Shown here one piece after another: positions 2,248 to 58,906 of a DNA stretch of 59,172 nucleotides (position 1 is the first letter of the stretch; every line of letters begins with the position of its first letter). A model generated the notes under the pieces. That model saw nothing but the letters and a program-made list of their open reading frames with translations, was not told the DNA's origin and searched no databases. A program made the position numbers and the translations under genes. Source of the stretch: Patescibacteria group bacterium. GTDB lineage: Bacteria > Patescibacteriota > Minisyncoccia > Minisyncoccales > RBG-13-36-15. Location: NCBI GenBank assembly GCA_018609195.1, contig JAHCSE010000006.1:1-59172 (forward strand). The letters are read 5' to 3'.

Positions 2248-3078
2248 CTATTTCATTGTTATTTCTTCTTTAGTTAATGCTTCTTTAATTCTCTTTCTCA
2301 ATGCTCTGGCAACCTCCCAGTGTTTCCCGGGTTTGGTATCACCTAGAATTCTTAATGATACCTTATCCCCTTCAATATTTTCCACTCCTAAAACTTCTGG
2401 GGGTTTTGTAATAAGGGCGCGAAATTGAGTATCTTGAGCTAAGGCCTTGCCAGTTTTATTTATAATTTCTATTGCCTTATCAAGATTAACTTCATAACCC
2501 AAAGCGATATTCATATCTACTCGAGAAAATCCTTTACTCAAATTAGAAACTTTCTTAATAGTACTGTGGATAATAAAATATTGAACGCCATTCAACCCTC
2601 GAAGGGTGGTTCGCCTGAGATTAATATCTTCTACTTTTCCCTCTGTGCCATCGATATTAACCCAGTCTCCTACTCGATACTGGTCTTCGATTAGAATAAA
2701 GAGGCCAGAAACTATATCTTTGACCAGGCTTTGAGAACCAAAGCCAATTGCCAACCCTAAAACTCCTATTCCAGCCAAAAGTGCTCCAATATTGATTCCA
2801 AATTCTGGAAGAATCATCATGGTAACCACCAATATAATCATTATTTTCCCGGCCATCAAAAAGATTTGAGCTAGGGTTTGAGTTCTTTTCTCTAAAGCCT
2901 TGTTATCTTGGTCAGCGTAAGTTTTCTTAGTTATAACTCCTATTAGGCGTAAGCTAAATTTCTTAAAAATTTTATATACAATAATACCTGCAATAATAAT
3001 TGCGAAAATTTTCAGACCCGGGCTTAAAAACCACTGAAGAATAGATTGCAAAATTGTTTGGAAATCAAAAGTAGGCAT
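2248..3078 (-). CDS. Small-conductance mechanosensitive channel (MscS family)
   Basis: N-terminal TM helices followed by LVKDIVSGLFILIEDQYRVGDWVNIDGTEGKVEDINLRRTTLR, typical of the MscS beta domain. Confidence 0.85.
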   Translation of the reverse strand: MPTFDFQTILQSILQWFLSPGLKIFAIIIAGIIVYKIFKKFSLRLIGVITKKTYADQDNKALEKRTQTLAQIFLMAGKIMIILVVTMMILPEFGINIGALLAGIGVLGLAIGFGSQSLVKDIVSGLFILIEDQYRVGDWVNIDGTEGKVEDINLRRTTLRGLNGVQYFIIHSTIKKVSNLSKGFSRVDMNIALGYEVNLDKAIEIINKTGKALAQDTQFRALITKPPEVLGVENIEGDKVSLRILGDTKPGKHWEVARALRKRIKEALTKEEITMK

Positions 3079-3099
3079 CTTATTCTATTTTATAAAAAA

Positions 3100-3615
3100 T
3101 TATTTAAGAAGACAAGTTTTCTGAAAAATCTTTATTAAAAGATAGGCGGAAAGAATTCCGACTAAAGCCCCAGCCAAAATATCTGAGGGCCAATGAATTC
3201 CAACAAAGACTCTAGCTGAACTAATGAAAAAACTGGCTCCAAAAAACAAGAGGCCAGCCTTTTTGTTATAGAAATAAATAATCGTGGCAATGGCAAAAAA
3301 GAAGGCAGCATGGCCAGAGGGAAAAGCTGATTGATTCACTCGATCCACAAGTAAATTCACATGATTTTCCACAAATGGTCTTGGTCGATCGAAAAGCCAA
3401 CGAATAACACTTACAATAACTAACCTTGCTAAAATGGCTGCAAGAAAAGCTTGAATTATCATTGGCCAGTATTTTTTGAAATTTTTTACCAAGAATAAAA
3501 GCAATAAAAAAACTAAAACATATCCGAAATATTTTGCAAAAAAAATTGCCAAGGTATCTAGCCAAAGCCATCTAAAAACCAATTGATTAATTTGTTGGAA
3601 GATAAATAAATCCAT
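3100..3615 (-). CDS. PAP2-family phosphatase (undecaprenyl-diphosphatase-like membrane protein)
   Basis: PAP2 motifs RPRP, PSGHAA and SRVFVGIHWPSDILAG, with multiple TM segments. Confidence 0.8.
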   Translation of the reverse strand: MDLFIFQQINQLVFRWLWLDTLAIFFAKYFGYVLVFLLLLFLVKNFKKYWPMIIQAFLAAILARLVIVSVIRWLFDRPRPFVENHVNLLVDRVNQSAFPSGHAAFFFAIATIIYFYNKKAGLLFFGASFFISSARVFVGIHWPSDILAGALVGILSAYLLIKIFQKTCLLK

Positions 3616-15616: not shown

Positions 15617-15673
15617 AACCAGCACCTCCTTTTTTGGCTTCTAGTAAAAGAGCTTTCCCTCCTACTGTAAAAG

Positions 15674-15713
15674 ATTCTAATACCTTTAAATAATAAGTCA
15701 AGCCCGAGGCAAC
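15674..15713 (-). promoter_or_regulatory. Promoter with shared box (-35 TTGACT, 16-nt spacer, -10 TAGAAT)
   Basis: Minus strand reads GTTGCCTCGGGCTTGACTTATTATTTAAAGGTATTAGAAT. The same CGAGGCA-GGT-TGCCTCG palindrome as at 14990 sits upstream. Confidence 0.6.
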
Positions 15714-15787
15714 CTGCCTCGCCGGCAAGGCGGGCAACTTTCGGGCAAGTTAGCTCCGTCTACGAGACGAAGCGAAGCCCCGCTGTG

Positions 15788-15847
15788 CCCCGTAGTGAAC
15801 GTTGTTCTACTACTACTGGGGTATACAGCTTCGCTGTTGTACTGGGG
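15788..15847. repeat. Degenerate CCCCGTAG-type hairpin plus an adjacent hairpin
   Basis: ccccgtagtgaacgttgttctactactactgggg, then ggggtatacagcttcgctgttgtactgggg. The left arm matches the 24805 copy and the right arm is decayed. Confidence 0.4.
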
Positions 15848-15861
15848 TTAGAACCCTGTTT

Positions 15862-15898
15862 TTAAAAACAAAAAGGCCTCTTAGCGTGAGCCAGAGGC
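15862..15898 (-). terminator. Intrinsic terminator of the small membrane-protein gene
   Basis: Stem GCCTCT/AGAGGC (15876-15881 with 15893-15898), followed on the minus strand by CTTTTTGTTTTT. Confidence 0.65.
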
Positions 15899-15930
15899 TA
15901 AAGAGAAAGAACTAAGCTATAAGGAGGTGT

Positions 15931-24676: not shown

Positions 24677-24804
24677 AGCTTTAATTTTACCACAATCTAA
24701 CCAGACATCCTTAAGGAGTCAGATTTACGAAGAGGATGATTAGATTTGTGGCAAAATGTTTCATACTTCTTAAGTAAATATCATTTTCAAAAACCCTTGT
24801 CAAG

Positions 24805-24884
24805 CCCCGTAGTGAAAATTGGACTGCCGTCGGCTCTTTTTGTATTTTGCTTCGCAAAATACATGTCCAATTTCTTCTACGGGG
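24805..24884. mobile_element. CCCCGTAG-type hairpin element (MITE-like), 80 bp, flanked by CAAG/CAAG
   Basis: Arms CCCCGTAGTGAAAATTGGAC and GTCCAATTTCTTCTACGGGG, inner hairpin gtattttgc-ttc-gcaaaatac, and a 4-bp direct repeat at 24801-24804 and 24885-24888. Confidence 0.65.
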
Positions 24885-24899
24885 CAAGCCCCCACCTAT

Positions 24900-39310: not shown

Positions 39311-39763
39311 TTGGTGAAAGTCTTAACTGAAAATAAAAAAGCTTATTTTAACTACGAAATCCTGGAAAAATTTGAGGCAGGTTTAGTTTTAATTGGCCAA
39401 GAGGTAAAATCAATTAAATTAGGGAGAATTAATATAGCTGGATCATATGTTGTAATAAAAGAAAATGAAGTTTTCCTAATTGGGTGTCGCATTCCTCCTT
39501 ATCAACCAAAAAACGCTCCTCCAGATTACAACCCTGAAAGACCTCGAAAGCTCCTTTTAAAGAAATTAGAGATTAAATATTTAATTGGTAAATCAAAACA
39601 AAAAGGCTTGACTTTGGTGCCTTTGAGGGTGTATACTAAAAGAGGAAAAATAAAGCTTGAATTTGGAATAGCTAAAGGAAAGAAAAAAGTTGATAAAAGA
39701 GAGTTAATTAAAAAAAGAGATATAGAAAGAGAAATGAAAAGAGAGTTTAAATTAAGGGGGTGA
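39311..39763 (+). CDS. smpB: SsrA-binding protein SmpB
   Basis: NKKAYFNYEILEKFEAGLVLIGQEVKSI and a basic C-terminal tail. TTG or GTG start. Confidence 0.93.
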   Translation: MVKVLTENKKAYFNYEILEKFEAGLVLIGQEVKSIKLGRINIAGSYVVIKENEVFLIGCRIPPYQPKNAPPDYNPERPRKLLLKKLEIKYLIGKSKQKGLTLVPLRVYTKRGKIKLEFGIAKGKKKVDKRELIKKRDIEREMKREFKLRG

Positions 39764-40107
39764 CAAGAATCGACAGAAATTGAACCAAAAATAGGCAAGC
39801 CGAGTGTTCTCAAATCTCGCAAAACATTTGAGAATCGGAAATAAGTGCCAACTTATTCCAAAAACCCGCATTAGCTTACGCTTAATGCCATCTGCTTTAG
39901 TGATTCTCGATAGCTACAAGTCAGGTGTCATACATATCGAGATAGATGGCTCTTTTTAAGGTCTAAAAAAGAACTATTGAATCAAAAATAGACCAAAGAA
40001 GAAAGATTTTGCCCAATTAAAACTTTCTCCTTACTCTCAAATTGGGATAAGCTTGTAGATCTATTTTGGGAAAATTTCTGGACGCGAGCTCGCCCTCGCC
40101 ACCTCCA
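39756..40107 (+). ncRNA. ssrA: tmRNA (ssrA), with tag reading frame 39847-39885 encoding ANLFQKPALAYA
   Basis: 5' GGGGGTG pairs with 3' CACCTCC-A, including the G3:U70 alanine identity pair. T-arm-like GCGAG...CTCGC. The tag ORF GCC AAC ... GCT TAA follows AAUAAGU. It sits immediately after smpB. Confidence 0.85.
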
Positions 40108-40111
40108 CTGA

Positions 40112-46516: not shown

Positions 46517-46951
46517 TTATTTTTTACTTTCCGAAAATTGGTGAGCTTTTATTAAAATATCTTTTGCGTTTTGAAATGTTAATTGCCTCAAGGCTTCTTC
46601 ATAAGGCAGCCATTTATAGTCAATATGTTCAAAGGAAATTTTCACATCTTTTGTTTTAGCTCTTGCTAAATAAAAGGTAACTGTTTTGAAAATGGTTTTT
46701 CCTTTAAATTTAAAAAAATATTTAATATGTTCTTTAAACCCCTCAATAATTTCAATGTCTTCTAATCCGGTTTCTTCTGCCACCTCTCTTTTTACCGTAT
46801 CGATTTCTTTCTCTCCTTTTTCAATGTGACCTTTGGGTAAATCCCAATACTCCTTGGTAGCTTTTGCTCCTGGTGGATAATGCAATAATAAGTATTCTAT
46901 CTTTTGGTTATCATAAAAGATAAGAGCACCAGCTGATTTTTCTAAAGGCAT
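46517..46951 (-). CDS. NUDIX hydrolase
   Basis: Canonical NUDIX box GHIEKGEKEIDTVKREVAEETGL. Confidence 0.88.
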   Translation of the reverse strand: MPLEKSAGALIFYDNQKIEYLLLHYPPGAKATKEYWDLPKGHIEKGEKEIDTVKREVAEETGLEDIEIIEGFKEHIKYFFKFKGKTIFKTVTFYLARAKTKDVKISFEHIDYKWLPYEEALRQLTFQNAKDILIKAHQFSESKK

Positions 46952-46952
46952 A

Positions 46953-47261
46953 CCCCGTAGGAAATAAAGTATTTTCCGTTATTATATTGAACGACCTTTG
47001 AAATAATGTTTTAACCTGTCTTTAATAAATCTTTTCCCAATTCCAGTTTTAAGATATTTTTCCCTTTGTTTGGCATCTTCTTTATGCAAACAAACTTCAA
47101 GATAAATTAATCTAAGCGGTCTTCTTGATTTGGTAGAAAATACTTTACCTAAATTATGTTTTAAGATTCTTTTTCGAAGGTCTTCAGCAAAACCTGTATA
47201 CAATTTACCGTCTTTTAGGCTCTGGAGAATATATACGTAAAACATAATATTTTCTACGGGG
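46953..47261 (-). mobile_element. GIY-YIG cassette bounded by CCCCGTAG-type inverted repeats and flanked by CATA/CATA
   Basis: Left end CCCCGTAGGAAATA (46953-66) and right end TATTTTCTACGGGG (47248-61); arms match at about 20 of 26 positions. 4-bp direct repeat at 46949-52 and 47262-65. Lies between two otherwise abutting genes. Confidence 0.6.
46982..47245 (-). CDS. GIY-YIG nuclease-domain protein (YhbQ/UPF0213-like, 87 aa)
   Basis: MFYVYILQSLKDGKLYTGFAEDLRKRILKHN and REKYLK. Confidence 0.85.
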   Translation of the reverse strand: MFYVYILQSLKDGKLYTGFAEDLRKRILKHNLGKVFSTKSRRPLRLIYLEVCLHKEDAKQREKYLKTGIGKRFIKDRLKHYFKGRSI

Positions 47262-47271
47262 CATAAATATT

Positions 47272-48531
47272 TTAATTTCTAGAAGATCTTTTGATTACTT
47301 TATTTTCTGGAATATTTTTATGTACCATTGTCCCAGGATAAATTATGCTATTTGAACCAACCAGTACACCTGGCATGGTGCCAGATTGTATCCCAATTGA
47401 TACATTATGGCCAATTATTGCACCGAGGCTAGAGTTGCCAGTAGGAATTTTTTCTTTCTTCAAATATACTGAGATCTCGCCTCTATCAAAACGTCTATTA
47501 GCTGTGACAAACCCTGCTCCAATTTTTGTATTCTCGCCTACGATGCTATTACCTACAAAACCAGAATGAAGCGAAGAATTTTTCATAAAAAGCGAGTTTT
47601 TTACTTCACTCATCGATCCGATCTTCACTCCCTCTTCTAAAAAGGTATTCTCACGAATTAGAGTATTGTTGCCAACAAATGCATTTTTCCCTACATAGAC
47701 GGGGCCTTTCAAAACAGCACCTTCTGAAATGTAAGCTCCTTCCTCAAGGGTAACTGGTCCCTGAATAATGGCATGAAGTCTAACTTTAGCTTTAGGAGAA
47801 ATAAAAGATTTCATTCGAGATGCCAAAAATTCTTTCAGACGAAAGAGGTCCCAGGAATATTTCAGGGAGAAAGTTTCTTTTTCAGATATAATTATTCTCA
47901 CGTCGTTATTTTCCAAATAAAGTTGGAGAGTATCTTCAAAATCATAAATGTGTTTTTTTATTTTTTTATAATATTGAAAAAAATCTCTTGGAAGTAAATA
48001 TATTCCTTTTAGTCCTATATTAGACAGTTCTTTTTCTTTTTTAGGTTGTTCAGTAAGTTTTATAACCTTATCTTTAATTTTTTTATCCAGTTCGACAATT
48101 CCATATTTCCAGGGTTTATCAACTTTTCCTCCAAGCAAGATTAATTCTGTTCTCGTCTTTTTTTGTTTTTCTATTATAGGTTTTACAAATTCATTAATAT
48201 CAAAGTGATGAGCATGCATTACAAAAAAATTATCCCGAATCAGATTTTTAACTTGCGACACTGCGTTTCCCATTCCTTTAGGTTTTAGCTGAATTACATA
48301 TTTTATTTTTAAATTTGGGGATTTGTAATTTTTAAGAGTTGCTTCGATATCTTTTTGAGGTCCTTGAATAATTATCAAGTCTTTTATCCCTGCCTGATTT
48401 AAACTCTCTAAAGTATACCAAATCAAAGGTCTCCCCATTATTTTAATGAGACTTTTATGTTTTTGATTGAGTGGCCAGAAACGAGAGGAGTGACCTGCAG
48501 CTAAAATGACAGCTTGAGGTAATTTTTTCAT
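47272..48531 (-). CDS. Sugar-phosphate nucleotidyltransferase with C-terminal left-handed beta-helix domain
   Basis: AVILAAGHSSRFWPL (NTP-transferase G-rich loop) and hexapeptide repeats in the C-terminal third. Confidence 0.82.
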   Translation of the reverse strand: MKKLPQAVILAAGHSSRFWPLNQKHKSLIKIMGRPLIWYTLESLNQAGIKDLIIIQGPQKDIEATLKNYKSPNLKIKYVIQLKPKGMGNAVSQVKNLIRDNFFVMHAHHFDINEFVKPIIEKQKKTRTELILLGGKVDKPWKYGIVELDKKIKDKVIKLTEQPKKEKELSNIGLKGIYLLPRDFFQYYKKIKKHIYDFEDTLQLYLENNDVRIIISEKETFSLKYSWDLFRLKEFLASRMKSFISPKAKVRLHAIIQGPVTLEEGAYISEGAVLKGPVYVGKNAFVGNNTLIRENTFLEEGVKIGSMSEVKNSLFMKNSSLHSGFVGNSIVGENTKIGAGFVTANRRFDRGEISVYLKKEKIPTGNSSLGAIIGHNVSIGIQSGTMPGVLVGSNSIIYPGTMVHKNIPENKVIKRSSRN

Positions 48532-55295: not shown

Positions 55296-57152
55296 TTATG
55301 GTGCAGTAGCCACAATGGTTACGGTCGAGTTATGCTGAGCTGAAGAAGAAGTTTCAGTAGGCATGGTTATGCGTAAATATAAATTTTGAGTAGTCCCTTG
55401 AACAACATTATCTGCCAAATCAGAAAGAGTACCAGGAGTTAAAAAAGTATTCCAGACGCTGGCATCTGCTGAAAACTCCCATTTGACCTGATTTGCCCCG
55501 TTGGCTAAACCTAAAGACCAGCAATTTCCATTATCGCAAAAAACTGTGCTTTTAACGTCCAAGTTGGCAGGTCCTGTGTCTATGCTAACGGTCTCCACCC
55601 CAGAGAGAGTAGTGTCTTCAGTACTTCCTAAGGGTAAAATTCCAAATTCAACTAAGCCATTGGTGGTTAAACTAATGGAAACTGCCGGAACAAGACTTGA
55701 AAGAGCAGCCTGAGCATCAATTATTCCAAATCCAAACTCATCATCTCTCCCACCGGCCCCTTTATCCTCAGCAGTTGACTCAAGAACATTTCTTACTTGA
55801 GACGGAGATAAGTTACCATCAACTGACAAAATCAGTGCCGCCAGCCCAGCAACATGGGGCGAGGCCATCGAGGTACCCTGAAAAAAGAAAAAAGCAAAGT
55901 CTGAAGTATTAGCTCCAAAAGTTTGCTGTAAAACGCCGTCTCCAAATCCATCCTCATTTTGATCAACAGTTACATCACCACCTGGAGCAGCTATATCAAT
56001 GTATAAACCTGTATTGGAGTAGGGCGCACGATTTTCGTCATAGCGGGTTGCAGCTACCGCAATCACATGAGCATCATAGGCCGCTGGGAAATTAGGCAGG
56101 TTTTCACCCTCAAAATCATTACCTCCAGAAGCGACAATTGTGACACCACTATTGAAAGCCGTCTCCACTGCGTCTCTCATTACTTGTGCATCAAAAGTAG
56201 TGCCTAAACTCATATTGATAACATCGGCACCGTTGTTGGCTGCAAGTAAAATGCCCTCTGCAACAACACCGAGAAGCCCGCTGCCGTTGGCGTCTAGAAC
56301 CTTGATCGGCATAATAGTGGTATTAAAAGCAACACCTGCTACTCCTAAACTATTATTAGTACTTTGGGCAACAGTACCTGTAACATGAGTACCGTGACTT
56401 TCATCATCATTGGGATGATCATCACTGTTGACCAAGTCAGACCCCGGCAGTATGGAAAAAGTAGTATTGGCAAGATCCGGAGCCTGAAAATATTCATCAA
56501 TTCTTGGTCCTGGACATTTCTTCAAATTCCCAAATGGGAAACTGTAACAGCCTGCAGGGTTTGGATCGGAAAAATTCTCATAAGCCGCACCAGTATCTAA
56601 TACAGCGACCACAACGGAAACAATGCCGGTAGAAATATCCCAAGCCTCTTCCATCCTGATTCCGCCTCCGTTTGCTCCCCCAAAAGGATTGGAAGTCGCC
56701 TCACCAGGATTGTTTGTGTGGTCGTCATCAAAATGCCATTGGAAGTTATAAAACTCGTCGTTTGGGACAAAATGGGCTTGAATAAAAAAGTTTGGATGTG
56801 CATATTCAACCAAAGGATTTTTGGCAAATATCTCGGCTTTCTTATAGACATTTGAACCTTCCGGAAGGCTCAAAGTGACAAAACCGCCAAATCTGCTGGC
56901 ACGAATCTCAACCGCCCCTTGTTCTGCCTTTAACTGTTCAATCACAGATGGAGGTACATTGGGTTTAAATTTCACGATAATCTGGTCTGCCGCAAAAGCT
57001 GGCAAATCTGGTTTTGGGGTTGGCTGTCTGACTCTAAGAGATAAATCATTTTGAGCAAATCCCTGAAAAATTTGGATAGGCAAAACAAAACCGAAAATTC
57101 CACTGATAACTAAAGCCAAAATTAAAACTTTAGAAATTTTGACCATAAACAT
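55296..57152 (-). CDS. Secreted S8 (subtilisin-like) serine protease with I9-like propeptide and a C-terminal beta domain
   Basis: Catalytic triad VAVLDTGA, HGTHVTGT and GTSMASPHVAG. Propeptide IIVKFKPNV. The probable start ATG 57152 overlaps the hicA stop (TAATG). The listed start is 57167. Confidence 0.9.
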   Translation of the reverse strand: MFMVKISKVLILALVISGIFGFVLPIQIFQGFAQNDLSLRVRQPTPKPDLPAFAADQIIVKFKPNVPPSVIEQLKAEQGAVEIRASRFGGFVTLSLPEGSNVYKKAEIFAKNPLVEYAHPNFFIQAHFVPNDEFYNFQWHFDDDHTNNPGEATSNPFGGANGGGIRMEEAWDISTGIVSVVVAVLDTGAAYENFSDPNPAGCYSFPFGNLKKCPGPRIDEYFQAPDLANTTFSILPGSDLVNSDDHPNDDESHGTHVTGTVAQSTNNSLGVAGVAFNTTIMPIKVLDANGSGLLGVVAEGILLAANNGADVINMSLGTTFDAQVMRDAVETAFNSGVTIVASGGNDFEGENLPNFPAAYDAHVIAVAATRYDENRAPYSNTGLYIDIAAPGGDVTVDQNEDGFGDGVLQQTFGANTSDFAFFFFQGTSMASPHVAGLAALILSVDGNLSPSQVRNVLESTAEDKGAGGRDDEFGFGIIDAQAALSSLVPAVSISLTTNGLVEFGILPLGSTEDTTLSGVETVSIDTGPANLDVKSTVFCDNGNCWSLGLANGANQVKWEFSADASVWNTFLTPGTLSDLADNVVQGTTQNLYLRITMPTETSSSAQHNSTVTIVATAP

Positions 57153-57370
57153 TACAAAATTTCCCAAAATTTCTGTTTAGATATCTTTAAATCTTTTAAG
57201 ATTTGATTAAAGAGGGCGGGGCCAATTTCTTTCCCTTTATGGATAGGTACTGTAATTCTTCTTCCATCTGGGTGCCGCAGAATCAGATGAGAACCTTTTT
57301 GACGAGAAAAATAAAAGCCCAAATTTTGAGCTACTTTAGTAACTTCTTTAGCTTTCGGTAATTTGGGCAT
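57152..57370 (-). CDS. hicA: HicA-family mRNA interferase toxin
   Basis: 72 aa, GSHLILRHPDGRRITVPIHKGKEIGPALFNQILKDL. Confidence 0.85.
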   Translation of the reverse strand: MPKLPKAKEVTKVAQNLGFYFSRQKGSHLILRHPDGRRITVPIHKGKEIGPALFNQILKDLKISKQKFWEIL

Positions 57371-57373
57371 AAA

Positions 57374-57625
57374 TTAAACCTTAACCTTTACCTCAATCGA
57401 AGAAAGACTGATGGGCTTCAAAACTGGGATTTTCTCTTTATGCAAAATTCTATCCTCAATATGAAGTGTAATGACCTCCCGAATATTTCTTAAAGCTTCT
57501 TCTAAACTTCTACCTTGAGTGTAACAACCTGGTAAAGCAGGAACCGAAGCAAAAAAATATCCTTTTTCATCTTTTTCAATAATTGCTGGAAATTGATAAA
57601 TTTTTGTAATTTTTTTCTTTTTCAT
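57374..57625 (-). CDS. hicB: HicB-family antitoxin (UPF0150 domain)
   Basis: YQFPAIIEKDEKGYFFASVPALPGCYTQGRSLEEALRNIREVI. Confidence 0.85.
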   Translation of the reverse strand: MKKKKITKIYQFPAIIEKDEKGYFFASVPALPGCYTQGRSLEEALRNIREVITLHIEDRILHKEKIPVLKPISLSSIEVKVKV

Positions 57626-57661: not shown

Positions 57662-57720
57662 CTTTTTATATTCCGCCAATAACGAAAATCAATAGCAAAA
57701 TTTTGCTGATTTTAAGCATA

Positions 57721-57861
57721 CCCCGTAGAAGAATTTTGACCAATTACAATTAATTTGCTGCCCCGCCCCGTAGTAGAATTTTATCTGGAGCGAAGCTCTT
57801 TTACCCATAATGATGAAATTTCACTACGGGGCCCCGCAGCAGTCAAAATTTCTCTACGGGG
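57721..57861. mobile_element. CCCCGTAG-type hairpin element (outer copy, flanked by CATA/CATA) carrying a nested second copy
   Basis: Outer arms CCCCGTAGAAGAATTTTGAC and GTCAAAATTTCTCTACGGGG. Direct repeat at 57717-20 and 57862-65. Confidence 0.65.
57766..57831. mobile_element. Nested inner CCCCGTAG-type element, 66 bp, flanked by CCCCG/CCCCG
   Basis: Arms CCCCGTAGTAGAATTTTATC and GATGAAATTTCACTACGGGG. 5-bp direct repeat at 57761-65 and 57832-36. Confidence 0.6.
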
Positions 57862-57899
57862 CATAACAAAATTTCTTTACTACCAAAAATTCCGCGTTT

Positions 57900-58543: not shown

Positions 58544-58620
58544 CCCCGTAGTAGAAATTCGACAAGTGTTTTATTTTGTAAAACACTTATGCTGAAAGCA
58601 GTCGAATTTTCACTACGGGG
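58544..58620. mobile_element. CCCCGTAG-type hairpin element, 77 bp
   Basis: Arms CCCCGTAGTAGAAATTCGAC and GTCGAATTTTCACTACGGGG, inner palindrome AAGTGTTTTA-tttt-GTAAAACACTT, and TTT on both flanks. Confidence 0.65.
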
Positions 58621-58621
58621 T

Positions 58622-58906
58622 TTATTTCAACCATGGTTTATCGGGATAATTTTTAAAAATATATTCGTATTTATCAATTCTCTCACCTGTTCTTTCATCA
58701 AAAAGCGGGGTCCCTCCAATATAAACTGTATCTTTAGGATCCCCGTATTGATTTAAATCGTTCTCGAGAATCCAGGTCTCAATGAGTTGTCTTTCCTCAG
58801 GAAAAATCCCACCTCCTTGTTCCTTTCCTTGTTTCAAAATACCGAATCCTATTATTAAAATCAAGATTATCAGCCCAAGAACGATTATTATCTTCCTCGC
58901 TACCAT
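58622..58906 (-). CDS. Small N-terminally anchored protein
   Basis: MVARKIIIVLGLIILILIIGFGIL TM helix. TTGACG, 16-nt spacer, TATAGT promoter-like element just upstream. Confidence 0.5.
   Translation of the reverse strand: MVARKIIIVLGLIILILIIGFGILKQGKEQGGGIFPEERQLIETWILENDLNQYGDPKDTVYIGGTPLFDERTGERIDKYEYIFKNYPDKPWLK

What the first reader, a model, noticed from the sequence alone, without database searches (positions are those of the whole stretch)
46949..47265. GIY-YIG nuclease gene enclosed by CCCCGTAG inverted repeats and a CATA duplication, inserted between two abutting genes
**What the sequence shows.**
- The 87-aa GIY-YIG ORF sits in a 309-bp cassette. Its ends are CCCCGTAGGAAATA... and ...TATTTTCTACGGGG, and the arms match at about 20 of 26 positions.
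- The cassette is flanked by the direct repeat CATA (46949-52 and 47262-65).
- Remove the cassette plus one CATA, and the nucleotidyltransferase stop codon lies 6 nt from the NUDIX ATG. That is the tight spacing typical of the rest of this window.
- The duplicated CATA, read on the coding strand as TATG, supplies the NUDIX start codon.
- The same terminal sequence defines the gene-less hairpin elements at 24805, 57721, 57766 and 58544.

**Interpretation.** This looks like an autonomous element with MITE-like derivatives, in which the only encoded protein is a minimal GIY-YIG nuclease. No transposase or integrase is present. I do not know of a characterised mobile-element type of this kind.

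**Alternative.** The hairpins could be REP-like structural repeats, with the nuclease gene merely lying between two of them.
Basis: partly seen in the sequence, partly recalled or inferred. Interest (0 to 1): 0.8.

Follow-up and report, generated by a model that had tools for sequence, protein, structure and literature searches.

The report
Tiny nuclease-only mobile DNA cassette
A 309-base cassette carrying only an 87-residue DNA-cutting enzyme gene between inverted-repeat ends belongs to a large, apparently undescribed family of very small mobile elements, with gene-less hairpin relatives, found across many bacterial phyla.

Summary
Window 46953-47261 is a 309-bp cassette with CCCCGTAG/CTACGGGG inverted ends, flanked by a CATA duplication. 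It lies between a nucleotidyltransferase gene and a NUDIX gene and encodes only an 87-aa GIY-YIG nuclease.

It is not a local accident.
- The closest homologues (84-85% aa) sit in three unrelated gene contexts. DNA homology begins exactly at CCCC and ends at GGGG.
- In 83 homologous elements from many phyla, about 75 genes are bracketed by the same class of terminal inverted repeat (consensus TTYACCCCGTTAGATA). Elements are about 0.26-0.32 kb.
- Gene-less hairpin elements with matching termini co-occur with them and show 4-bp target duplications (12 of 33 perfect, 1.8 expected).
- One genome holds two 98.9%-identical cassettes in unrelated flanks.
- Removing one cassette plus one repeat copy restores a full-length integron integrase gene.

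The nuclease is under purifying selection (dN/dS about 0.1). It is Slx1/UPF0213-like, meaning related to structure-specific nucleases. No known transposase lies within these ends.

That the nuclease drives mobility is inferred, not shown. The window's copy is fixed in all 6-7 assemblies, and no empty site was found. Literature searches found no description. Best reading: a new kind of ultra-compact mobile element.

The parts
46953..47261 (-). Complete 309-bp GIY-YIG cassette, from CCCCGTAG to CTACGGGG.
   Evidence: In the DNA alignment with cassettes from three other gene contexts, homology starts at CCCC and ends at GGGG.
46982..47245 (-). GIY-YIG nuclease ORF of 87 aa, of the Slx1/UPF0213 type.
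   Evidence: Pfam PF01541, E = 2.8e-15. The PDB profile search hits UPF0213 entries 1zg2 and 1ywl and Slx1. The AlphaFold model has pLDDT 94.5, and the top Foldseek hits are 1zg2 and Slx1. dN/dS is 0.07-0.14.
47236..47261 (-). Terminal inverted repeat on the 5' side of the gene. Read on the coding strand it is CCCCGTAGAAAATATTATGTTTTACG and contains the ORF start codon. In relatives it also carries an AGGA Shine-Dalgarno-like motif.
46953..46981 (-). 3' untranslated end, including the terminal inverted repeat. On the coding strand it reads (TAA)CGGAAAATACTTTATTTCCTACGGGG. It is nearly invariant among cassettes whose synonymous divergence is 0.6-1.3.
46949..46952 (.). One copy of the CATA target-site duplication. 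Read as TATG on the coding strand, it holds the NUDIX start codon.
47262..47265 (.). The other copy of the CATA target-site duplication. Its ATG opens a 19-codon out-of-frame upstream ORF that runs over the nuclease start codon.
24805..24884 (.). Gene-less hairpin element of 80 bp, flanked by CAAG at 24801-24804 and 24885-24888. It lies 15 nt after the stop codon of a 499-aa gene.
   Evidence: z = -8.4.
57721..57861 (.). Gene-less hairpin element, the outer member of a nested pair. It is flanked by CATA at 57717-57720 and 57862-57865.
   Evidence: z = -10.0.
57766..57831 (.). Gene-less hairpin element of 66 bp, inserted into the apical loop of the outer element. It is flanked by CCCCG at 57761-57765 and 57832-57836.
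   Evidence: z = -4.8.
58544..58620 (.). Gene-less hairpin element of 77 bp, flanked by TTT. It lies 1 nt after the stop codon of the ORF at 58622-58906.
   Evidence: z = -10.8.
15788..15821 (.). Solitary CCCCGTAG at the base of a short degenerate hairpin (CCCCGTAGTGAAC...CTACTGGGG). It may be a remnant of an element.
   Evidence: z = -4.1, which is weak.

Best explanation
**What it is.** The cassette is one copy of a widespread family of ultra-compact mobile DNA elements.
- Elements are about 0.26-0.32 kb long.
- They are bounded by terminal inverted repeats of 12-16 nt.
- The family core is CCC(C/T)GT(T/G/-)A(G/A)A. In this lineage it is CCCCGTAG.
- The only gene is an approximately 85-aa Slx1/UPF0213-type GIY-YIG nuclease.
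- The packing is maximal. The left repeat carries the ribosome-binding region and start codon. The right repeat overlaps or directly follows the end of the ORF.

**Shown here.**
- The element occupies unrelated sites in different genomes, and in one case within a single genome.
- It creates short target duplications, usually 4 bp. In the window the duplication is CATA, which regenerates the NUDIX start codon.
- It has gene-less hairpin derivatives that share its termini and also show duplications.

**Inferred.**
- The nuclease recognises the element ends in folded form, as hairpin, cruciform or panhandle. Each hairpin has a 9-bp basal stem, CCCCGTAGT/ACTACGGGG, followed by a conserved 2x2 internal loop.
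- It cuts at the base of that stem, as Slx1 cuts branched DNA.
- It also makes a staggered cut of about 4 nt at the target.
- Host ligation or repair completes the insertion, because a hydrolytic GIY-YIG nuclease cannot carry out strand transfer.
- The gene-less hairpins would be mobilised in trans.

**Status of the window's copy.** It is an old insertion, fixed in this organism, and still under purifying selection.
For: **Same boundaries in unrelated contexts.**
- The best homologues (84-85% aa) lie in three unrelated contexts: VTT/phosphoglycerate mutase, pilin/T2SSF, and peptidase S11/glycosyltransferase.
- They have identical ends, with flanks TATG/TATG, cATG/tATG and TTA/TTA.
- DNA homology starts at CCCC and stops at GGGG.

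**More conserved than the host genome.**
- The neighbouring nucleotidyltransferase has no homologue above 64% identity, against 85% for the nuclease.
- Relatives of the L001 host lack the cassette.

**Family-wide linkage of gene and repeats.**
- About 75 of 83 elements in 80 GTDB species genomes plus closer relatives have the terminal repeats. The phyla include Patescibacteria, Bacteroidota, Desulfobacterota, Planctomycetota and Nitrospirota.
- Both ends give the consensus TTYACCCCGTTAGATA.
- Repeat subtype co-varies with the protein. The nearest protein neighbour has the same subtype in 46 of 70 cases, against 15% expected (0 of 1000 permutations).

**Evidence of insertion events.**
- Perfect 4-bp direct repeats abut the ends in 12 of 33 gene-less elements (null 1.8) and 7-8 of 61-67 cassettes (null about 1.6). 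They occur only at offset 0.
- All five hairpins and the cassette of this organism have flanking repeats.
- One hairpin is nested inside another.
- In L053, two copies are 98.9% identical over 275 bp while their flanks are unrelated.
- In L015, removing the element plus one CGCA restores a full-length integron integrase (TIGR02249, 454 bits).

**Functional constraint.**
- dN/dS is 0.07-0.14 at dS 0.6-1.3.
- The 25-nt non-coding 3' end is nearly invariant.
- The residues Y3, Y5, Y16, G18 and E62 are invariant across the alignment.

**Structure-specific nuclease type.**
- The profile search hits UPF0213 and Slx1.
- Foldseek gives Slx1 a TM-score of 0.63-0.65, against 0.43 for I-TevI.

**No other enzyme found.**
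- No other ORF lies inside the repeats.
- No longer element with these repeats encodes a transposase. The one apparent case, L081, is an unrelated IS4 insertion into a cassette.
- No tyrosine recombinase or IS200-like gene was found in 69 kb.
Against: - No experiment or read-level evidence shows excision or insertion.
- The window's cassette is present in all 6-7 assemblies of this organism. Another family member keeps one site across many samples. Activity is therefore low, or in the past.
- An 87-aa hydrolytic nuclease with no separate DNA-binding domain is an unprecedented candidate for a transposase, and it cannot join DNA.
- About half of the cassettes show inverted TTYA...TRAA next to the core instead of a direct duplication, and no duplication is detectable outside it. 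The insertion chemistry is therefore unclear.
- The window's hairpins belong to a different terminal-repeat subtype from the window's cassette.
- Only about 77 kb of a roughly 750-kb genome was seen, so a trans-acting transposase elsewhere is not excluded.
Confidence: 0.62

Rival explanations
1. **Passenger model.** The terminal repeats are the substrate of an unidentified trans-acting transposase, for example an HUH/Y1 RAYT-like or DDE enzyme encoded elsewhere. The cassette would then be a MITE that carries a GIY-YIG gene as cargo. That gene could be selfish, as an addiction or homing aid, or useful to the host as a repair nuclease.
For: - MITEs are normally mobilised in trans.
- Only about 77 kb of a roughly 750-kb genome was inspected.
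- The cassette is fixed and single-copy in this organism, as RAYT genes are.
- The hairpin subtype differs from the resident cassette's subtype.
Against: - The same repeat class is tied to this one gene family across at least five phyla, in about 75 of 83 elements.
- Repeat subtype co-varies with the nuclease.
- No longer element bounded by these repeats carries a transposase.
- No tyrosine recombinase or IS200-like gene was found in 69 kb.
- A cargo gene would not be expected to be the only, universal and maximally packed content.
Confidence: 0.2
2. **Free-standing homing endonuclease gene.** The nuclease cuts cassette-less alleles, and the gene spreads by recombinational repair. The inverted repeats would be regulatory or mRNA-stabilising structure rather than transposon ends.
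For: - GIY-YIG is a classic homing-endonuclease fold.
- Cassettes sit precisely between or inside conserved genes: integron integrases, pilin genes and tRNA 5' ends.
- 17 of 76 cassettes abut a downstream start codon.
Against: - There is no DNA-binding domain.
- The group I intron endonuclease model scores 21 bits against a cutoff of 56.
- The fold is closer to Slx1 than to I-TevI.
- Homing does not produce target duplications, gene-less hairpin copies, nesting, or insertion at unrelated sites.
Confidence: 0.1
3. **The first reader's alternative.** The hairpins are REP-like structural repeats acting as terminators or stabilisers, and the nuclease gene merely lies between two of them.
For: - The hairpins sit in intergenic spacers close to stop codons.
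- The sequence GTAG is also the tag of one REP superfamily (title of PMC3733652, listed).
Against: - The same gene-plus-repeat unit recurs in unrelated contexts and phyla.
- The repeats overlap the ORF start and end.
- Target duplications are present.
Confidence: 0.03
4. **Integron-type gene cassette.** The repeats would be attC-like sites, recombined by a tyrosine recombinase.
For: - Many repeats contain GTTAGAG or GTTAGAT, which resemble the attC core GTTRRRY.
- The cassettes are promoterless single ORFs.
- Several lie in integron integrase genes.
Against: - The polarity is reversed. Here the order is 5'-GTTAGAG...CTCTAAC-3', whereas attC is 5'-RYYYAAC...GTTRRRY-3' (established knowledge of attC).
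- The repeats bracket the ORF instead of forming one 3' palindrome.
- The cassettes are single and dispersed among housekeeping genes, not in arrays.
- They have 4-bp duplications.
- The window's GTAG subtype lacks the GTT core.
- No integrase was found in 69 kb.
Confidence: 0.03

Closest known systems
REP/REPIN-RAYT systems (repetitive extragenic palindromes and their Y1 HUH transposase)
   Same: - A single small nuclease-type gene is bracketed by inverted copies of a palindromic repeat.
- Dispersed gene-less hairpin copies lie in intergenic spacers.
- The gene is mostly single-copy and stably inherited.
- The hairpin has a conserved imperfection in its stem.
   Different: - The enzyme is a GIY-YIG (Slx1-like) nuclease, not an HUH tyrosine transposase.
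- The gene-plus-repeat unit itself sits at different loci in different genomes, and at least once within one genome.
- Short target duplications are present.
- GTAG lies inside the stem rather than as an unpaired 5' tag.
Class II TIR transposons / insertion sequences with MITE derivatives
   Same: - Terminal inverted repeats.
- Short target-site duplications.
- Gene-less miniature derivatives that share the termini.
- Nested insertions.
   Different: - There is no DDE, serine, tyrosine, HUH or Cas1-type transposase.
- The only ORF is an approximately 85-aa hydrolytic nuclease.
- At 0.26-0.32 kb the element is less than half the size of the smallest insertion sequences (IS200 is about 0.7 kb, from my own knowledge).
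- Duplication length is not strictly fixed (3-6 bp), and duplications are undetectable in about half of the cassettes.
Free-standing GIY-YIG homing endonuclease genes (for example the phage T4 seg genes, I-TevI relatives)
   Same: - A GIY-YIG nuclease is the sole product of a selfish insert placed between or inside conserved genes.
- The insert does little harm to its neighbours.
   Different: - There is no DNA-binding domain.
- The nuclease belongs to the Slx1 lineage, not the I-TevI/UvrC lineage.
- It has terminal inverted repeats, target duplications and gene-less hairpin derivatives.
- It inserts at many unrelated sites.
Prokaryotic stand-alone Slx1-like GIY-YIG proteins (UPF0213: E. coli YhbQ, B. 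halodurans BH0048, E. faecalis EF2693)
   Same: - Same minimal single-domain fold and catalytic motifs.
- Similar length.
   Different: - E. coli yhbQ has no such terminal repeats and is annotated as a DNA-damage-response nuclease.
- The lineage was described as vertically inherited and non-selfish (PMC1564403). The subfamily found here behaves as a mobile cassette.
IS200/IS605 family
   Same: - Very small elements.
- Hairpin-forming ends, probably recognised in folded form.
- Non-autonomous palindromic derivatives.
   Different: - IS200/IS605 elements have subterminal hairpins, not terminal inverted repeats.
- They make no target duplication.
- They use a Y1 HUH transposase.

Membership tests
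GIY-YIG nuclease superfamily (Pfam PF01541) | Significant match to the domain model. | tested here: met
   E = 2.8e-15, 56.8 bits against a cutoff of 22.6, covering residues 1-67.
GIY-YIG nuclease superfamily (Pfam PF01541) | Catalytic motif residues: GIY tyrosines, YIG Tyr/Gly, central Arg, C-terminal Glu. | tested here: met
   Y3, Y5, Y16, G18 and E62 are invariant in 33 sequences. R26 and H30 are conserved in at least 90%.
Slx1 / UPF0213 lineage of stand-alone GIY-YIG nucleases | Closest sequence and fold relatives are UPF0213 proteins and the Slx1 nuclease domain, with no auxiliary domain. | tested here: met
   The profile search hits 1zg2 (1.4e-11), 1ywl and Slx1 7cq2. Foldseek gives 1zg2 and Slx1 (TM-score 0.63-0.65, rmsd 1.6 A over 71 residues) ahead of I-TevI (0.43). 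The whole protein is 87 aa.
Slx1 / UPF0213 lineage of stand-alone GIY-YIG nucleases | Structure-specific cleavage of branched or hairpin DNA. | not testable with these tools
   Needs biochemistry.
Homing endonuclease (I-TevI-like GIY-YIG) | Nuclease domain tethered to a sequence-specific DNA-binding domain, with a match to the group I intron endonuclease model. | tested here: not met
   TIGR01453 scores 21.2 bits against a cutoff of 56. There are no residues beyond the catalytic domain.
Homing endonuclease (I-TevI-like GIY-YIG) | Spread into one cognate allele by gene conversion, without terminal repeats or target duplication. | tested here: not met
   The cassettes occupy many unrelated sites and have terminal repeats and duplications.
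TIR DNA transposon / insertion sequence | Terminal inverted repeats that define the ends of the mobile unit. | tested here: met
   Homology boundaries coincide with the repeats. The repeats are present in about 75 of 83 elements.
TIR DNA transposon / insertion sequence | Target-site duplication. | tested here: inconclusive
   Duplications are clear for the window's lineage and for gene-less elements: 12 of 33 perfect 4-mers against 1.8 expected, and the L015 reconstruction. They are absent or undetectable in about half of the cassettes, which show inverted TTYA...TRAA instead.
TIR DNA transposon / insertion sequence | Encodes a transposase of a known class (DDE, HUH, serine, tyrosine, Cas1). 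| tested here: not met
   The only ORF is the GIY-YIG nuclease. No longer element with these repeats carries a transposase.
MITE (the gene-less hairpins) | Short, no ORF, terminal inverted repeats, target duplication, several copies, termini shared with a coding element. | tested here: met
   There are five copies of 66-141 bp in about 77 kb, each with a flanking repeat. Their termini match the L077 and L064 cassette subtype.
REP/REPIN-RAYT | The associated gene is a Y1 HUH (RAYT) transposase. | tested here: not met
   The bracketed gene is GIY-YIG. This is a weak test.
Integron gene cassette | A single 3' attC palindrome with the order 5'-RYYYAAC...GTTRRRY-3', arrays next to intI, and no target duplication. 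| tested here: not met
   The repeats bracket the ORF with reversed polarity. The cassettes are solitary and have a 4-bp duplication. No integrase lies nearby.

The most novel reading that the evidence does not exclude
These cassettes would be a previously unrecognised class of prokaryotic transposable element.
- The sole protein is an approximately 85-aa Slx1-like GIY-YIG nuclease that acts on the folded inverted-repeat ends.
- At 0.26-0.32 kb they would be the smallest autonomous mobile elements known.
- They come with their own hairpin MITEs.
- They are spread across many bacterial phyla: 4,416 protein clusters (50% identity) at E <= 1e-10 and 19,099 at E <= 1e-3.
- A large part of the 'housekeeping' UPF0213/Slx1-like family would then in fact be selfish.
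Probability: 0.5. Interest if true: 0.9.

Novelty: categorically new. Interest (0 to 1): 0.82.

Why it matters
**A possible new transposase class.** If the nuclease mobilises the element, a GIY-YIG/Slx1-type hydrolytic nuclease joins the short list of transposase classes (DDE, HUH, serine, tyrosine, Cas1, RT/endonuclease). It would also set a new lower size limit for an autonomous mobile element.

**A reinterpretation of a common gene annotation.** Thousands of genes annotated 'GIY-YIG nuclease family protein' would need re-reading. They are especially common in streamlined Patescibacteria. The stand-alone Slx1-like lineage has been taken as ancestral, vertically inherited and non-selfish (PMC1564403).

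**An origin for short hairpin repeats.** It would supply a source for short intergenic hairpin repeats in genomes that lack known transposases.

**Ways to insert with little harm in tightly packed genomes.**
- Regenerating the start codon of the downstream gene.
- Sitting in frame between two prepilin-peptidase-like sites.

**A possible tool.** A very small nuclease specific for a structure plus a sequence could be of practical interest.

Tried and rejected
**Empty site for the window's own insertion: not obtainable.**
- The nucleotidyltransferase's nearest homologues are at most 64% identical, and they lack the adjacency with NUDIX.
- All 6-7 assemblies holding the NUDIX protein also hold the cassette.
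- The other assemblies I fetched are 100% identical to the window.

**Multi-copy test with P0052.** This family member occurs on more than 24 contigs. Nine of the ten places shown share one context, RecO-GIY-633 aa, across many samples, and L097 differs upstream. It is not a multi-copy burst.

**Relatives of L001's neighbour.** They lack the cassette but also lack the upstream gene. This shows absence in relatives, not a precise empty site.

**Searches that found nothing.**
- Rfam finds nothing at the cassette or the hairpins.
- PADLOC and PHROGs give no match.
- Plasmid and phage collections give no match at 1e-8.
- IMG/VR has only 2 relatives, and the 3' end has no exact match there. The family is therefore not obviously carried by phages or plasmids.

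**Search for a transposase inside longer repeat pairs.** The only apparent case, L081, proved to be an unrelated IS4-family element. It has its own inverted repeats and a 9-bp duplication, and it is inserted into a cassette ORF.

**Search for a duplication outside the TTYA...TRAA flanks.** None was found.

**Control that failed.** In one search I paired the upstream region of one locus with the downstream region of another. This is not a valid null, because all loci share the repeat. I do not rely on it.

**Eight literature searches**, including searches for the repeat sequences themselves, returned nothing relevant.
Full report
**1. The observation**

All genes in the region lie on the minus strand:

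| Feature | Coordinates |
|---|---|
| Sugar-phosphate nucleotidyltransferase | 47272-48531 |
| 87-aa ORF | 46982-47245 |
| NUDIX hydrolase | 46517-46951 |

- CCCCGTAG lies at 46953-46960 and its reverse complement at 47254-47261. The cassette is therefore 309 bp.
- The two arms form the longest inverted repeat in the surrounding 800 bp: 30 nt, 77% complementary.
- CATA flanks both ends, at 46949-46952 and 47262-47265.
- On the coding strand the 46949-46952 copy reads TATG and provides the NUDIX start codon.
- After removing the cassette plus one CATA, the stop-to-start spacer would be 7 nt.
- CCCCGTAG occurs 11 times in the window against 0.45 expected, and no shuffle out of 100 reached 11.
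- Ten of those occurrences form five convergent pairs: the cassette, and gene-less elements at 24805-24884, 57721-57861, 57766-57831 (nested) and 58544-58620.
- Every one of these has a short direct repeat at its ends: CAAG, CATA, CCCCG and TTT.
- The gene-less elements fold as single-stranded DNA with z-scores from -4.8 to -10.8.
- Each fold has a 9-bp basal stem, CCCCGTAGT/ACTACGGGG, followed by a 2x2 internal loop.
- A fifth hairpin, flanked by CAAAG, lies about 8 kb beyond the window's right end on the same contig.

**2. The protein**

- The ORF matches Pfam GIY-YIG at E = 2.8e-15.
- A profile built from 33 homologues hits the solved UPF0213 proteins BH0048 (1zg2) and EF2693 (1ywl), and the Slx1 nuclease domain.
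- The AlphaFold model is confident, with pLDDT 94.5.
- Its best structural matches are 1zg2 and Slx1 (TM-score 0.63-0.65, rmsd 1.6 A over 71 residues). I-TevI scores only 0.43.
- The catalytic tyrosines, glycine and glutamate are invariant across the alignment, and the central arginine is conserved in at least 90%.
- The protein is only the catalytic domain.
- It matches no defence family in PADLOC and no phage family in PHROGs.
- The group I intron endonuclease model scores far below its cutoff.

**3. The cassette is a unit that occupies unrelated sites**

The three closest homologues (84-85% aa identity) lie in different contexts:
- between a VTT-domain gene and a phosphoglycerate mutase;
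- between pilin genes and T2SSF;
- between an S11 peptidase and a glycosyltransferase.

Each has the same ends:
- The left end is CCCC(G/A)TA(G/A)GAAATA(A)TT followed by the ATG.
- The right end is GGAAAATACTTTATTTC(C/T)TACGGGG.
- The flanks are TATG/TATG, cATG/tATG and TTA/TTA.

Other points:
- In a four-way DNA alignment, similarity begins at CCCC and ends at GGGG(T). The flanks are unrelated apart from the short repeats.
- Synonymous divergence among the four ORFs is 0.6-1.3, with dN/dS of 0.07-0.14.
- Despite that divergence, the 25-nt non-coding 3' end differs at a single position. The ends are therefore under their own constraint.
- The host neighbour gene has no homologue above 64% identity, and its relatives carry neither the cassette nor the NUDIX adjacency.
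- Relatives of the L001 host (76% identical phosphoglycerate mutase) lack the cassette.

**4. The association is family-wide**

A scan of one genome per GTDB species returned at least 576 loci. The 80 best come from Patescibacteria, Bacteroidota, Desulfobacterota, Planctomycetota, Nitrospirota and other phyla.

- An unbiased search for the best inverted repeat around each gene found the same class of terminal repeat in about 75 of 83 elements. Element sizes were about 263-317 bp.
- Both ends give the consensus TTYACCCCGTTAGATA.
- Subtypes exist: GTAG, GTTAGAG, GTTAGAT, GTGAGA, GTGAAA, TGTTAAA and others.
- Subtype tracks the protein. The nearest protein neighbour shares the subtype in 46 of 70 cases against 15% expected, and no permutation out of 1000 reached the observed within-versus-between difference.
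- The 3' repeat often overlaps the ORF end, giving the C-terminus ...SLTG followed by the stop. Some database proteins end in ENTxFPTG, which is a read-through translation of the window-type 3' end.
- The profile finds 19,099 clusters (50% identity) at E <= 1e-3 and 4,416 at E <= 1e-10.
- E. coli yhbQ is a distant UPF0213 member and has no such repeats. The cassette therefore corresponds to a distinct subfamily.

**5. Evidence for insertion events**

- Gene-less repeat pairs of 31-158 bp occur in many of the same loci. They have the same subtype as the resident cassette.
- Perfect 4-bp direct repeats abut their ends in 12 of 33 cases, against 1.8 expected from re-pairing the flanks. For cassettes the figure is 7-8 of 61-67, against about 1.6. 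The excess exists only at offset 0.
- In L053 (Yanofskybacteria), three cassettes lie within about 2.9 kb. Copies 1 and 3 are 98.9% identical over 275 bp, while their 200-bp flanks align at about 40%, which is unrelated.
- In L015 (Gracilimonas), deleting the element plus one CGCA restores a 326-aa ORF. That ORF matches the integron-integrase model end to end (TIGR02249, 454 bits, cutoff 265).
- L042 behaves the same way, with the repeat CA(C/T)A.
- In the window, one hairpin is inserted into the apical loop of another.
- No longer element bounded by these repeats encodes a transposase. The only apparent case, L081, is an IS4-family element inserted into a cassette ORF.

**6. How it most likely works**

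*Shown.* This is a repeat-bounded unit whose only gene is a conserved nuclease. It inserts at unrelated sites with duplications of about 4 bp, and it has gene-less derivatives.

*Inferred.*
- The Slx1-like nuclease recognises the ends in folded form: a hairpin for the short elements, and a panhandle or cruciform for the cassette.
- It cleaves at the stem base and makes a staggered cut at the target.
- Host enzymes ligate and fill in, because a hydrolytic nuclease cannot transfer strands.

*Supporting observations.*
- The conserved internal loop in the stems suggests that the enzyme recognises a structure.
- The variable repeat length (3-6 bp) is compatible with completion by host repair.
- The cassette has no room for a promoter.
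- 44 of 76 cassettes have a same-strand downstream gene within 400 bp.
- In 17 of 76, the start codon of that gene lies within -1 to +5 nt of the right end, as in the window.
- The element therefore appears to be expressed from host operons and tolerated because it regenerates the neighbour's start.

**7. What does not fit**

- About half of the cassettes have inverted TTYA...TRAA next to the core instead of a direct repeat.
- The TRA is the in-frame stop codon of the ORF.
- No duplication is detectable outside these four bases.
- The window's hairpins share only CCCCGTAG plus a few bases with the window's cassette. Their termini match the cassettes of L077 and L064.
- The window's copy is fixed in all assemblies on record, and another family member is stable across many samples.
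- A trans-acting enzyme elsewhere in the genome cannot be excluded. I saw about 77 kb of roughly 750 kb.

**8. Comparison with what is known**

- *REP/REPIN-RAYT systems.* The architecture is most like these: a gene bracketed by inverted palindromic repeats, plus dispersed hairpins. The enzyme is different, the gene unit itself moves, and duplications occur.
- *TIR transposons with MITEs.* The element shares terminal repeats, duplications and miniature derivatives with these, but it lacks any known transposase class.
- *Free-standing GIY-YIG homing endonuclease genes.* It shares the fold and the selfish placement. It lacks a DNA-binding domain and has repeats, duplications and many targets.
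- *Integron cassettes.* These are excluded by repeat polarity, solitary dispersed location and the presence of duplications.
- *Prior view of the lineage.* The phylogenomic survey of the superfamily treats prokaryotic stand-alone Slx1-like proteins as minimal, ancestral and vertically inherited. It derives the selfish members from the other (UvrC) lineage (PMC1564403).
- *Horizontal transfer.* A recent study lists GIY-YIG genes among those transferred horizontally out of Patescibacteria, but it does not describe an element (PMC12455944).
- *Literature.* Eight full-text searches, including searches for the repeat sequences, found no description.

**9. Verdict**

| Claim | My estimate |
|---|---|
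| The cassette is, or derives from, a mobile element bounded by these repeats | about 0.9 |
| The nuclease is the mobilising enzyme | about 0.5-0.6 |

The mechanism is hypothetical. As far as I could establish, the element type is undescribed.

Noticed in passing
L015:1427-1730; also L014, L031, L042, L045, L069: Six of the 80 GTDB loci have the cassette inside a tyrosine recombinase gene, near the conserved box-II coding region (HSFATH, ELLGH). The insertions fall at three or more different positions. L015 reconstructs to a full-length integron integrase (TIGR02249, 454 bits). Whether this reflects target preference or tolerance of insertions in dispensable integrases is unknown.
   Followed up: partly
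L053:373-647, 1131-1405, 2984-3258: Three cassettes lie in frame inside type-IV-pilin-like genes, exactly at the prepilin cleavage motif: ...SGF[TPLETT-nuclease-LPLTGF]TLIEIMIG.... The left repeat TTC ACC CCG TTA GAG reads F-T-P-L-E, which mimics the G|FTLIE site. The nuclease therefore sits between two prepilin-peptidase-like sites. This may allow the pilin to be processed despite the insertion.
   Followed up: partly
L013:~2960-3275 and L018:~2320-2620: These cassettes sit at the 5' end of tRNA genes and are flanked by long direct repeats: ACGGGCTGTAG (11 nt) and TAACGGGCCGTGG (13 nt). The repeats include the first bases of the tRNA and an ACGGG that resembles the element's own end. The insertion regenerates an intact tRNA 5' end. 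This hints that sequences resembling the element end attract insertion about 6 nt downstream.
   Followed up: partly
GTDB loci L009-L088: About 31 of 67 cassettes carry inverted TTYA...TRAA immediately outside CCCC/GGGG, giving a 16-nt repeat, and have no detectable duplication. The GTAG-type cassettes and many gene-less elements have clean 4-bp direct repeats instead. The two patterns are not reconciled by any model I could test.
   Followed up: partly
L081:588-2185: A GIY-YIG cassette whose ORF is split by an IS4-family insertion sequence. The IS has its own inverted repeats (CACTTCTGTCCGGTT...) and a 9-bp duplication (ATTTATGTA).
   Followed up: yes
window 47208-47264 (minus strand): The duplicated host start codon upstream of the cassette opens a 19-codon ORF (ATG CCC CGT AGA ...). 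It is out of frame with the nuclease and overlaps the nuclease start codon. It could couple or throttle nuclease translation from the host gene's ribosome-binding site.
   Followed up: no
window 15630-15930: A G+C-rich, apparently structured intergenic stretch containing the solitary CCCCGTAG hairpin. There is no Rfam match, even at a permissive threshold.
   Followed up: partly
window 57152-57625, and L114:5875-6349: Two HicB/HicA toxin-antitoxin pairs. The nested hairpin elements at 57721-57861 lie about 95 nt upstream of one of them (Pfam calls listed).
   Followed up: no
window 39756-40110 and 2109-2192: A tmRNA gene (Rfam, 121.7 bits) and a tRNA-Leu(CAA) gene. Neither is associated with an element in this window.
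   Followed up: no
one search hit list; L076:2979-5547: Many family members in the protein library begin the match at residue 20-50, or are much longer (up to 655 aa). This is consistent with gene callers reading through the left repeat from host sequence, or with in-frame fusions like those in L053.
   Followed up: no
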